From Limisphaerales bacterium (lineage in GTDB: Bacteria > Verrucomicrobiota > Verrucomicrobiia > Limisphaerales > JADLHS01): DNA of 64,000 nt. The notes under the pieces were generated by a model. That model did not search any database, was not told the origin of the DNA, and was given only the letters and a program-made list of their open reading frames with translations. Below, in pieces: positions 36,153 through 36,404 of the stretch. The stretch spans positions 73,382-137,381 of the forward strand of contig JBGAIM010000018.1 of the NCBI GenBank assembly GCA_044225555.1, written 5' to 3'. Both the position numbers and the translations under genes were made by a program. Position 1 is the stretch's first letter; the number at the start of each line of letters is the position of its first letter.

Positions 36153-36285
36153 ACGACGGGTCGCAGGATTGGGTTATCGCTCATAACGACGCGGTCGCCG
36201 GTTCGAGTCCGGCCTCCGGAACCAAATGCCGGAGTAGCTCAGTGGTAGAGCACGTAAAATTCCCAGTTCATCTCTTATCCGTCGT
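36153..36285 (+). ncRNA. Y RNA-like module 4 (divergent Ro site; circularly permuted tRNA-like core)
   Basis: 5' ACGACGG-G-T-CG / 3' CTTAT-CCGTCGT (7 bp plus G.T, bulged T instead of C). GGGTTATC. Order is T arm GCCGG-TTCGAGT-CCGGC, closed acceptor hairpin CTCCGG-AACCAAATG-CCGGAG, then TA plus D arm GCTC-AGTGGTA-GAGC. Confidence 0.5.
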
Positions 36286-36291
36286 TTTCTT

Positions 36292-36404
36292 TGATGGGCC
36301 GAAGACATCGGGTTATCTGTCATTGGTTCGAATCCAATCCGGGGCATAAGACGCCTCGGTAGCTAAGTGGTATAGCAAATTCCTGCGTCGTCCCTTGCCC
36401 ATCA
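36292..36404 (+). ncRNA. Y RNA-like module 5 (circularly permuted tRNA-like core)
   Basis: 5' TGATGGG-C-CGAAG / 3' CTTG-CCCATCA with bulged C. GGGTTATCTG. Order is T arm TTGG-TTCGAAT-CCAA, closed hairpin CCGGGGC-ATAAGAC-GCCTCGG, then TA plus D arm GCTA-AGTGGTA-TAGC. Confidence 0.65.

What the first reader, a model, noticed from the sequence alone, without database searches (positions are those of the whole stretch)
36153..36404. Two Y-like modules carry a circularly permuted tRNA-like core with a loop-closed acceptor stem
In modules 4 and 5 the order inside the Ro-type stem is T arm, then a hairpin, then TA plus D arm. The T arms are GCCGG-TTCGAGT-CCGGC and TTGG-TTCGAAT-CCAA. The hairpins are CTCCGG-AACCAAATG-CCGGAG and CCGGGGC-ATAAGAC-GCCTCGG. 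The D arms are GCTC-AGTGGTA-GAGC and GCTA-AGTGGTA-TAGC. So the tRNA 3' half precedes the 5' half and the acceptor helix is closed by a 7-9 nt loop, while the Ro-type stem sits where the anticodon arm would be. Modules 1 and 3 in the same array have the normal 5'-to-3' tRNA order. The alternative reading, a split tRNA spanning two modules, pairs worse (5 bp vs 6-7 bp) and leaves orphan halves at both ends.
Basis: seen in the sequence. Interest (0 to 1): 0.7.

Follow-up and report, generated by a model that had tools for sequence, protein, structure and literature searches.

The report
Two tRNA-mimicking Y RNAs beside Ro60
The two elements are real, conserved, folded RNAs, but they belong to a known class: bacterial YrlA-type Y RNAs, whose tRNA-like part is already described as a circularly permuted tRNA with a closed acceptor stem, encoded here just upstream of the Ro60 (rsr) gene of a Verrucomicrobiota bacterium.

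Summary
Modules 4 (36153-36285) and 5 (36291-36405) each fold as a Ro-type stem enclosing a T arm, then a closed 6-7 bp hairpin, then UA plus a D arm. Minimum-energy folds reproduce this. Alignments of 34 and 36 orthologues from Verrucomicrobiota genomes show about 99% pairing. All 7 acceptor-hairpin pairs of module 5 carry compensatory changes, and the tRNA 15:48 tertiary pair covaries. The split-tRNA reading fails in relatives (4.2 of 7 pairs against 6.7 of 7).

This is the defining architecture of YrlA Y RNAs (Chen 2014; Wang 2018, PDB 6CU1). Rfam's YrlA model hits both modules (38.7 and 34.2 bits). That is below its conservative threshold, and actinophage YrlA-like hits also fall below it. 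The rsr gene starts about 450 nt downstream of module 5.

Three details seem to be lineage-specific:
- a conserved array of up to six tRNA-derived Y modules, embedded in a tRNA gene array;
- acceptor loops that read N-CCA plus 3 nt, like a tRNA-tRNA gene junction. This suggests RNase P opening, as shown for M. smegmatis YrlA;
- a neighbouring small SEC-C gene that appears to need a +1 ribosomal frameshift.

The parts
36153..36285 (+). Module 4: complete YrlA-type Y RNA module (closing Ro-type stem plus tRNA-like core)
   Evidence: MFE fold, z -2.68. Rfam YrlA RF02553 full-length hit 36154-36287, 38.7 bits, E 1.5e-6. Orthologues in 46 related loci. 34-sequence alignment: 98.9% of cells paired, 8 pairs with compensatory change, 0/500 shuffles as good.
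36153..36173 (+). Module 4, 5' strand of the Ro-type stem. It carries GUCGCAG (36160-36166), a near match to the YrlA motif GNCGAAN0-1G, and is followed by GGGUUAUC.
   Evidence: It pairs with 36262-36285. These pairs are kept in 34 orthologues. The motif definition is from PMC4201824.
36197..36213 (+). Module 4 T arm (tRNA positions 49-65: G53-C61, U54 U55 C56, A58), preceded by GGUC (C48 at 36196)
   Evidence: The middle pair covaries CG/GC/UA in 18 of 34 sequences.
36214..36234 (+). Module 4 closed acceptor-like hairpin: 6 bp plus a G.A at the 7th position. The loop is A-CCA-AAU, with ACCA at 36221-36224.
   Evidence: In orthologues it is 7 bp in 27 of 34. The loop columns for CCA are C 34/34, C 31/34 and A 34/34, while three of the four flanking loop columns vary.
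36235..36251 (+). Module 4 U8-A9 plus D arm (GCUC-AGUGGUA-GAGC: A14, G15, G18 G19, A21)
   Evidence: The G15:C48 Levitt-type pair is kept in 32 of 34 sequences.
36291..36405 (+). Module 5: complete YrlA-type Y RNA module
   Evidence: MFE fold. Rfam YrlA hit 36296-36397, 34.2 bits, E 3e-5. 36-sequence alignment: 98.5% of cells paired, 13 pairs and 127 cells with compensatory change, 0/500 shuffles as good, and at most 45% paired when partners are slid.
36298..36304 (+). Module 5 GCCGAAG, an exact match to the YrlA Ro-stem motif GNCGAAN0-1G
   Evidence: The motif is from PMC4201824.
36322..36338 (+). Module 5 T arm (AUUGG-UUCGAAU-CCAAU), preceded by UGUC (C48 at 36321)
   Evidence: 3 of 5 pairs show compensatory changes.
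36339..36359 (+). Module 5 closed acceptor-like hairpin: 7 bp (one G-U), loop AUAAGAC. The CCA seen in some orthologues has decayed to UAA here.
   Evidence: All 7 pairs show compensatory changes in 7-21 of 36 sequences.
36360..36376 (+). Module 5 U8-A9 plus D arm (GCUA-AGUGGUA-UAGC)
   Evidence: The 13:22 pair covaries C-G to A-U in 5 sequences. The 15:48 pair is U:A in 19 and C:G in 11 of 36.
36853..38553 (+). rsr: Ro60 orthologue (TROVE plus Ro60 vWA domains), the protein partner expected for these RNAs
   Evidence: Pfam TROVE 1.7e-47 and vWA_Ro60 2.3e-60. 87-91% identical proteins in Verrucomicrobiota/Limisphaerales MAGs.
36725..36795 (+). Module 6: minimal Y RNA (Ro-type stem with both conserved strands, no tRNA-like core) directly upstream of rsr
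   Evidence: Fold z -3.04. Rfam nematode sbRNA (Y RNA homologue) model 28.4 bits here and 40-42 bits, above its threshold, in relatives. Orthologues in 44 loci.
35584..35733 (+). Module 1: Ro-type stem enclosing a tRNA-like body in normal order (D arm, a 7-bp stem capped by GCGA where the anticodon arm would be, T-like arm)
   Evidence: Rfam tRNA hit 35631-35705, 33.4 bits. Repeat family D1. Orthologues in only 4 loci.
35899..36005 (+). Module 2: Ro-type stem with a T arm and a 7-bp hairpin closed by G-CCA-GAU, but no D arm (YrlB-like)
   Evidence: Fold z -3.10. Orthologues in 36 loci. Loop variants listed.
36013..36137 (+). Module 3: Ro-type stem continuing into a short acceptor-like stem, then D arm, a capped stem-loop and a T-like arm (normal order)
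   Evidence: Fold z -2.69. Rfam tRNA 36044-36107, 21.3 bits, below threshold. Orthologues in 10 loci.

Best explanation
Modules 4 and 5 are two YrlA-class bacterial Y RNAs, or two modules of one multi-Y precursor, encoded on the same strand about 450-700 nt upstream of rsr (Ro60) in a Verrucomicrobiota chromosome.

Shown here:
- Each RNA pairs its 5' and 3' ends into a stem that carries the conserved Ro-binding-type sequences.
- That stem takes the place of a tRNA anticodon stem.
- From it emerge, in this order, a variable-region remnant ending in C48, a T arm, an acceptor-type helix closed by a 7-nt loop, U8-A9, and a D arm.
- The nucleotides that build the tRNA elbow and core are present: U8, A14, the 15:48 pair, G18 G19, U54 U55 C56, A58 and G53-C61. 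The 15:48 pair covaries.

Inferred from YrlA literature:
- The core folds into the tRNA L-shape, as in the crystal structure of S. Typhimurium YrlA.
- The stem binds the Rsr ring.
- The tRNA-like domain tethers Rsr to a tRNA-binding effector or to PNPase, and protects the RNA from nucleases.

Inferred from sequence here:
- The module 4 family has a 7-bp acceptor stem followed by a conserved N73-CCA and a 3-nt spacer before G+1.
- It is therefore a plausible RNase P substrate. Cleavage would open it into a two-piece RNA with a CCA end, as shown experimentally for M. smegmatis YrlA.
- The window's own copies are weaker candidates. Module 4 has a G.A at the 7th pair, and module 5 has lost the CCA.
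For: - Folding: the MFE structures equal the proposed structure.
- Independent model: Rfam YrlA (RF02553) aligns both modules end to end, with T arm, hairpin, UA and D arm in register.
- Context: a TROVE/vWA Ro60 gene lies immediately downstream on the same strand.
- Comparative data: 81 distinct T-hairpin-D modules were found in the 80 related loci plus the window. Pairing is 98.9% and 98.5%, with 8 and 13 covarying pairs, no shuffle does as well on pairing or covariation score (at most 4 of 500 on any measure), and pairing collapses to 27-48% when partners are slid.
- Tertiary pair: 15:48 is G:C in 47, A:U in 26 and other in 8.
- Literature: YrlA is defined by the order T stem-loop, acceptor-like stem-loop, D stem-loop (PMC4201824). 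It is described as a circularly permuted tRNA with a closed acceptor stem, and its crystal structure shows a tRNA-like L-shape (10.1101/312249; PDB 6CU1 cited in PMC11472068).
- RNase P precedent: M. smegmatis YrlA, with a 7-bp acceptor stem, is cleaved by RNase P and gains CCA.
- NCCA loops: CCA sits at loop positions 2-4 in 34 of 65 distinct hairpins and at most once at any other offset. It is near-invariant in module 4 orthologues while three of the four neighbouring loop positions vary.
Against: - Both modules score below Rfam's gathering threshold (69 bits), and no orthologue in 15 relatives reaches it. However, actinophage hits to the same model also score only 35-52 bits.
- Module 4's Ro-stem motif is GUCGCAG rather than GNCGAAG.
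- There is no expression, Rsr-binding or modification data for this lineage.
- No sigma-70-like promoter was found upstream.
- On the RNase P step: CCA is poorly kept in module 5 orthologues (10 of 36 distinct loops in the module 5-type set) and is absent from the window's module 5. A 3-nt tether between A76 and G+1 may hinder RNase P binding.
Confidence: 0.9

Rival explanations
1. Split (trans-module) tRNA. The D-arm half of module 4 and the T-arm half of module 5 form one tRNA whose long 'intron' holds the Y stems, so the real units straddle module borders.
For: Rfam's tRNA model reports 36228-36346 at 30.4 bits, just above its threshold of 29.
Against: - That alignment has 3 non-pairs in the 7-bp acceptor stem and no anticodon arm.
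- In 30 consecutive module pairs from relatives, cis hairpins average 6.7 of 7 pairs and trans combinations 4.2 of 7.
- Compensatory changes track the cis partners.
- The distance between module 4 and module 5 orthologues varies from about 140 nt to about 1.1 kb.
- The hit is the mirror of the tandem-tRNA artefact that Chen et al. filtered out of their YrlA search: adjacent tRNA-like halves can score against the wrong model.
Confidence: 0.02
2. True circularly permuted tRNA genes, as in Cyanidioschyzon merolae. The precursor is circularised through the outer stem and the acceptor loop is opened, giving a working tRNA.
For: The gene order is the same (3' half, closed acceptor, 5' half). NCCA is encoded in many loops. 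The resemblance is discussed by Wang et al..
Against: - No anticodon loop or stem can be formed from the outer stem.
- The outer stem instead carries conserved Ro-type sequences and matches the Y RNA/sbRNA model.
- Bacteria are not known to have the splicing endonuclease this pathway needs (10.1101/312249).
- The modules sit next to rsr in dozens of genomes.
Confidence: 0.02
3. Decaying debris of the surrounding tRNA gene array (pseudogenes or recombination scars) with no function of its own.
For: The locus lies inside a tRNA array. The NCCA plus short spacer geometry equals a tRNA-tRNA junction. The window's module 5 has lost CCA.
Against: - There is strong purifying selection on structure: compensatory changes in all hairpin pairs, covariation of the tertiary 15:48 pair, and about 99% pairing across loci whose Rsr proteins are as little as about 66% identical to the window's.
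- The order of modules along the array is conserved.
- No donor tRNA in the window resembles either half.
Confidence: 0.03
4. A variant of the main explanation: the mature forms are two-piece RNAs. RNase P cuts 5' of G+1 in the acceptor loop, the 3' side is trimmed to CCA, and the halves stay paired on Rsr. In a polycistronic transcript this would also serve to separate or mature the array using the tRNA-processing machinery.
For: - There is a 7-bp stem, N73-CCA, a 3-nt spacer and G+1 in most module 4 orthologues (31 of 34 with CCA, 27 of 34 with 7 bp).
- The M. smegmatis precedent.
- tRNA genes of this genome encode CCA (11 of 12).
- The array is flanked by tRNA genes on the same strand.
Against: - This is not universal. 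Module 5-type and module 2-type loops often lack CCA.
- The window's module 4 has a G.A at pair 1:72.
- S. Typhimurium YrlA is not cleaved.
- There are no end-mapping data.
Confidence: 0.3

Closest known systems
YrlA RNAs (Rfam RF02553; S. Typhimurium YrlA, crystal structure PDB 6CU1; Chen et al. 2014, Wang et al. 2018)
   Same: They are encoded next to rsr. The 5' and 3' ends form the Ro-binding stem with GNCGAA(N)G. The order is T stem-loop, closed acceptor-like stem-loop, UA, D stem-loop. The conserved tRNA core nucleotides are present and 15:48 covaries.
   Different: - Scores are below Rfam's curated threshold.
- The acceptor stem is 7 bp (6 in Salmonella), with a 7-nt loop that often reads N-CCA-NNN.
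- Two such modules sit in tandem within an array of up to six Y modules.
- There is no rtcBA operon; the locus lies in a tRNA gene array.
Mycobacterium smegmatis YrlA/YrlB
   Same: They lie upstream of rsr and are processed from one precursor. The acceptor stem is 7 bp. A partner Y RNA has only a T arm, like module 2 here. RNase P cleavage and a CCA end provide the functional precedent.
   Different: In M. smegmatis CA is added after cleavage, whereas here CCA is genome-encoded in many loops. M. smegmatis has two RNAs rather than up to six. Cleavage is untested here.
Circularly permuted tRNA genes (Cyanidioschyzon merolae; Thermofilum pendens)
   Same: The 3' half precedes the 5' half, the acceptor stem is initially closed by a loop, and the termini pair.
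   Different: Those precursors contain a real anticodon arm and mature into decoding tRNAs through circularisation. Here the terminal stem is a Ro-binding Y stem with no anticodon.
Deinococcus radiodurans Yrn1, metazoan Y RNAs and nematode sbRNAs
   Same: They share the Ro-binding bulged helix. Module 6 and the outer stems match the sbRNA model. Yrn1 has a T arm, and its tRNA-like parts are in the opposite orientation, as in modules 1 and 3.
   Different: Yrn1 and metazoan Y RNAs lack the full permuted T/acceptor/D core that modules 4 and 5 have.
Two-piece (permuted) tmRNA
   Same: This is another bacterial tRNA-like RNA whose gene is circularly permuted and which is opened by processing into two base-paired pieces with a CCA end.
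   Different: tmRNA is aminoacylated and carries a tag reading frame. It has no Ro stem and no link to rsr.

Membership tests
[quoted passage not shown] | Encoded within about 4 kb of a Ro60/Rsr gene | tested here: met
   rsr (TROVE plus vWA_Ro60) is at 36853-38553, on the same strand. Module 4 ends 568 nt and module 5 ends 448 nt upstream of it. The 4-kb criterion is from PMC4201824.
[quoted passage not shown] | 5' and 3' ends pair into a stem carrying the GNCGAAN0-1G Ro-binding-type motif | tested here: met
   Module 5 has GCCGAAG (36298-36304), an exact match. Module 4 has GUCGCAG (36160-36166), one mismatch. The stems are kept in 34 and 36 orthologues.
[quoted passage not shown] | Order T stem-loop, acceptor-like closed stem-loop, D stem-loop inside the stem (a circularly permuted tRNA-like domain) | tested here: met
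   MFE folds, the Rfam alignment and covariation.
[quoted passage not shown] | Conserved tRNA tertiary-interaction nucleotides, including a covarying 15:48 Levitt pair | tested here: met
   U8, A14, G18 G19, U54 U55 C56, A58 and G53-C61 are present in both modules. The 15:48 pair is G:C in 47, A:U in 26 and other in 8.
[quoted passage not shown] | Score at or above the Rfam RF02553 gathering threshold (69 bits) | tested here: not met
   The scores are 38.7 and 34.2 bits, and none of 15 relatives reaches the threshold. The threshold is conservative: YrlA-model hits near Ro in actinophages score 52.1, 35.4 and 35.1 bits.
[quoted passage not shown] | Bound by Rsr in vivo; T and D loops modified by TruB and DusA | not testable with these tools
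   This needs immunoprecipitation and modification mapping.
Functional tRNA (including split or permuted tRNA genes) | Anticodon arm with a 7-nt loop; 7-bp acceptor stem formed by the two halves | tested here: not met
   There is no anticodon arm; the Ro stem occupies that position. ARAGORN calls nothing in 36153-36405. The trans acceptor has 4 of 7 pairs.
RNase P-processed YrlA (M. smegmatis type) | 7-bp acceptor stem with G+1, and a 3' NCCA available after cleavage | tested here: inconclusive
   The sequence features are present in most module 4 orthologues. The window's module 4 has 6 bp plus a G.A, and its module 5 has 7 bp but no CCA. Cleavage itself was not tested.

The most novel reading that the evidence does not exclude
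In this verrucomicrobial lineage rsr sits inside a tRNA operon, preceded by a polycistronic array of up to six tRNA-derived Y modules. Their YrlA-type members keep a 7-bp acceptor stem closed by exactly N73-CCA plus about 3 nt. That is the sequence of a junction between two tightly packed tRNA genes.

The novel reading has two parts:
- These modules are living intermediates of the proposed 'dimeric tRNA' origin of Y RNAs.
- They are matured by the tRNA machinery, with RNase P cutting at G+1 and 3' trimming to CCA. The products would be two-piece, CCA-ended Y RNAs that could perhaps be aminoacylated.
Probability: 0.3. Interest if true: 0.6.

Novelty: new member of a known kind. Interest (0 to 1): 0.3.

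Why it matters
As stated, the finding rediscovers the YrlA fold, so it does not change what is known. Its practical value is in annotation. A whole clade of Verrucomicrobiota has unannotated Y RNA arrays that fall below Rfam's threshold. Parts of them are mis-scored as tRNA: the tRNA model reports a spurious 'split' gene here, and ARAGORN gives odd calls at some tRNA-like elements of the array in relatives.

The lineage-specific details could interest the Ro/Y RNA field in three ways:
- They give sequence-level support to the tandem-tRNA origin model of Y RNAs.
- They give a second, broader case in which RNase P processing of a Y RNA can be tested.
- They give a natural collection of different ways of grafting a Ro-binding stem onto a tRNA body.

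Tried and rejected
- Split tRNA across modules. It is scored by Rfam's tRNA model at 30.4 bits but rejected on acceptor mismatches, the missing anticodon arm, cis versus trans pairing in 30 module pairs, and variable spacing.
- Maturing permuted tRNA gene. Rejected: there is no anticodon, and the Ro-type stem is conserved.
- Phage or mobile-element origin of the window. Rejected: large ORFs are ordinary chromosomal genes such as GH127, NorB and histidine kinases, and a close relative is a 5.9 Mb chromosome.
- Search for a donor tRNA. BLAST of the de-permuted halves against the window found no related tRNA.
- Promoter scan. No sigma-70-like site lies upstream of the array. One terminator-like hairpin follows module 1, at 35738-35751.
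- Rfam at gathering threshold on 15 relatives. No YrlA hit came back, only tRNAs and sbRNA-model hits.
- Viral-contig scan for NCCA-looped junctions. Nearly all 123 matches are ordinary tandem tRNA junctions. Three look like NCCA-looped YrlA-like elements, but no rsr lies in the held stretch.
- Literature. The supplement of Chen 2014 and the two Sim & Wolin reviews are not held. I could therefore not check whether Verrucomicrobia or NCCA loops are already listed there.

Full report
**What is there.** The quoted motifs are all present on the + strand at the stated coordinates.
- Module 4 spans 36153-36285 and module 5 spans 36291-36405.
- Each consists of a long terminal stem enclosing, in this order: a short single-stranded stretch ending in C, a 5-bp T arm with a UUCGAxU loop, a hairpin of 6-7 bp with a 7-9 nt loop, the dinucleotide UA, and a 4-bp D arm with an AGUGGUA loop.
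- ViennaRNA gives exactly this structure as the minimum-energy fold for each module alone and for the pair together (z-scores -2.68, -1.51 and -1.81).
- A T-loop/N20-30/D-arm pattern matches only these two places in the 64 kb window, with none expected by chance.

**Context.** A 566-aa protein with TROVE and Ro60-type vWA domains is encoded at 36853-38553 on the same strand. This is the bacterial Ro60 orthologue, Rsr.
- Upstream of it there are six modules that share the 5' strand (G)AUGGGCCG...GG(G/A)UUAUC and the 3' strand CCUUGCCCAU(C).
- Module 6 is a minimal Y RNA. It matches the Rfam nematode sbRNA (Y RNA homologue) model, and its orthologues exceed that model's threshold.
- The closest Rsr proteins (87-91% identity) come from Verrucomicrobiota/Limisphaerales MAGs, including a 5.9 Mb chromosome.
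- The window's other genes are ordinary chromosomal genes.

**Identity.** Rfam's YrlA model (RF02553) aligns both modules over its full length, at 38.7 bits (E 1.5e-6) and 34.2 bits (E 3e-5).
- Chen et al. 2014 defined YrlA by exactly this arrangement. [quoted passage not shown]
- Wang et al. 2018 solved the structure. [quoted passage not shown]
- The structure (PDB 6CU1) is used as the standard example of a circular permutation of tRNA (PMC11472068).
- The scores are below Rfam's gathering threshold of 69 bits. So are the YrlA-model hits near Ro in Gordonia, Streptomyces and Mycobacterium phages (52.1, 35.4 and 35.1 bits), groups in which phage YrlAs have been reported. The threshold is conservative rather than discriminating.

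**Comparative test.** A scan of one genome per species with the Rsr protein returned 80 loci, most of them Verrucomicrobiota.
- Together with the window they hold 81 distinct T-hairpin-D modules next to the Y-stem motif.
- Their order along the array is conserved. Orthologues of module 4 occur in 46 loci and of module 5 in 20.
- In MAFFT alignments made without reference to structure, the module 4 family (34 sequences) has 98.9% of cells paired and 8 pairs with compensatory change.
- The module 5 family (36 sequences) has 98.5% paired, with 13 pairs and 127 cells showing compensatory change. This includes all 7 pairs of the acceptor-like hairpin.
- No column shuffle matches the observed pairing or covariation score (at most 4 of 500 on any measure). 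Sliding the 3' partners by 1-3 columns drops pairing to 27-48%.
- The tRNA Levitt pair covaries: 15:48 is G:C in 47 modules, A:U in 26 and something else in 8. This is the same signature Chen et al. used to argue for a tRNA-like fold.

**The rival reading.** Rfam's tRNA model reports 36228-36346, the D half of module 4 plus the T half of module 5, at 30.4 bits.
- That alignment has three non-pairs in the acceptor stem and no anticodon arm.
- In 30 consecutive module pairs from relatives, the cis hairpins average 6.7 of 7 pairs and the trans combination 4.2 of 7.
- The spacing between the two modules ranges from about 140 nt to about 1.1 kb.
- The split-tRNA reading is therefore rejected. A permuted gene that matures into a real tRNA is also rejected, because the terminal stem is a conserved Ro-type helix without any anticodon.

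**What seems specific to this lineage.**
1. *Array.* Among 48 Verrucomicrobiota loci with at least 2 kb upstream of rsr, the median is 4 Y-stem motifs (up to 6) and 2 YrlA-type modules. Almost none lie on the opposite strand.
   - The modules differ in how the Ro stem is joined to a tRNA-like body.
   - In modules 4 and 5 it joins at the anticodon-stem position.
   - In modules 1 and 3 it joins at the acceptor end. These are in normal order, with the 'anticodon' arm capped by a tetraloop, which is the orientation described for D. radiodurans Yrn1.
   - Module 2 has only a T arm and an acceptor hairpin, like M. smegmatis YrlB.
2. *tRNA setting.* The locus is embedded in a syntenic tRNA gene array in the window and in relatives.
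3. *Loop sequence.* The 'loop' of the acceptor hairpin is often N-CCA followed by 3 nt.
   - CCA occupies loop positions 2-4 in 34 of 65 distinct hairpins, and at most one has it at any other offset.
   - In the module 4 family the three CCA columns are C 34/34, C 31/34 and A 34/34, while the discriminator and two of the three spacer columns vary. The stem is 7 bp in 27 of 34.
   - tRNA genes of this genome encode CCA (11 of 12), and neighbouring array tRNAs are separated by 0-10 nt.
   - So the T-arm/acceptor/NCCA/spacer/acceptor/D-arm core has the geometry of a junction between two packed tRNA genes. This fits the dimeric-tRNA origin model cited by Wang et al..
   - It also makes these modules candidates for RNase P opening. 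This has been shown for M. smegmatis YrlA, which likewise has a 7-bp stem and ends up with a CCA tail.
   - The window's own copies are imperfect. Module 4 reads A-CCA-AAU but has a G.A at pair 1:72, and module 5 has 7 bp but AUAAGAC in the loop.
   - Actinophage YrlA-like hairpins that I inspected have no NCCA.
   - I could not check the supplementary lists of Chen 2014 or the Sim & Wolin reviews. I therefore cannot say that the NCCA loops are unreported.

**Mechanism.**
- Shown: the conserved secondary structure and tRNA-type tertiary covariation, the adjacency to rsr, and the match to the YrlA model.
- Inferred from the literature on the family: the terminal stem binds Rsr; the tRNA-like domain folds into an L-shape; and it acts as a tether or gate towards PNPase or an unidentified tRNA-binding effector.
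- Inferred from sequence here: co-transcription with the other modules and possibly rsr, and RNase P opening of the NCCA-type loops.

**Verdict.** These are new, unannotated members from Verrucomicrobiota, with some lineage-specific features worth a specialist's look.

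Noticed in passing
window 36465-36647 (frame 0) and 36646-36708 (+1 frame): A conserved 60-aa ORF between modules 5 and 6 ends ...[17 protein letters not shown]. The +1 frame continues [21 protein letters not shown], which completes the SEC-C zinc motif. About 29 related loci from independent MAGs show the same split (UUU-UAA/UAG), with the +1 peptide conserved through synonymous changes. 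A few database homologues are contiguous ORFs across the junction (P0121, P0184, P0176). This is a candidate programmed +1 ribosomal frameshift at UUU UAA G.
   Followed up: partly
window 32319-34161 and 39341-41656; loci L003-L067: The rsr/Y RNA locus is embedded in a large, syntenic, same-strand tRNA gene array: Gly-Ala-Asp-Pro-Arg-Asn-Ile-Phe-Thr-His, then the Y array and rsr, then Cys-Thr-Arg-Leu... There are up to about 20-25 tRNA hits in 9.5 kb in relatives. Actinophage Ro genes also sit in or next to tRNA arrays.
   Followed up: partly
window 35819-35890: A free-standing tRNA-like gene (Rfam tRNA 39.4 bits) has its anticodon loop replaced by a GAAA tetraloop on a 6-bp stem. Its 3' end reads ...GAGUGC-G-CCA. 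ARAGORN does not call it. It is conserved in 24 related loci just upstream of module 2. It may be comparable to the anticodon-less or 'b7a-tRNA'-type tRNA-like RNAs mentioned by Wang et al..
   Followed up: partly
window 35504-35573: A degenerate tRNA-His(GUG)-like gene scores 34.4 bits with Rfam and is not called by ARAGORN. It is the orthologue of the tRNA-His that ends the upstream tRNA array in relatives. In the window it is separated from tRNA-Thr by a minus-strand gene (34256 to about 35323). The listed ORF's N-terminal extension overlaps the tRNA and is probably not real.
   Followed up: partly
L001 about 3450, L028 about 3180, L035/L038/L039/L042 module 5-type loops; downstream of module 4 orthologues in L002, L004, L020, L029, L032: A small hairpin of the form TGGCCGTGCGCCAGCA recurs. 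It is inserted into acceptor-hairpin loops of some modules and also sits just after module 4-type modules in several genomes. It could be a mobile or protein-binding mini-element.
   Followed up: no
L018 2784-2915: One related locus has a Y-stem module with a third permutation. A closed acceptor hairpin (CGCCUCC-GCCAUAU-GGGGGCG, again N-CCA plus 3 nt) comes first, followed by a D arm, an anticodon arm with a 7-nt loop (CCA, Trp) and a T arm. Rfam scores it as tRNA at 53.6 bits. It was seen only once.
   Followed up: partly
L155, L168, L177 (IMG/VR contigs): Three viral-contig elements have a T arm, a 7/7 self-complementary hairpin closed by N-CCA plus 3 nt, and a D arm, with no flanking full tRNA. 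No rsr lies within the stretch held.
   Followed up: no
L083 5711-5850 (Gordonia phage BlueNGold): The annotated 'tRNA-Leu(gag)' overlaps tRNA-Gln and coincides with a YrlA-model hit (52.1 bits). This is probably a Y RNA mis-annotated as a tRNA.
   Followed up: no
window 36592-38553: In the window, and in L003, the +1 frame of the SEC-C gene runs on without a stop through module 6 into rsr. This produces a spurious 653-aa ORF. In other loci the frame stops after 19-173 codons, so a fusion to Rsr is probably coincidental.
   Followed up: yes
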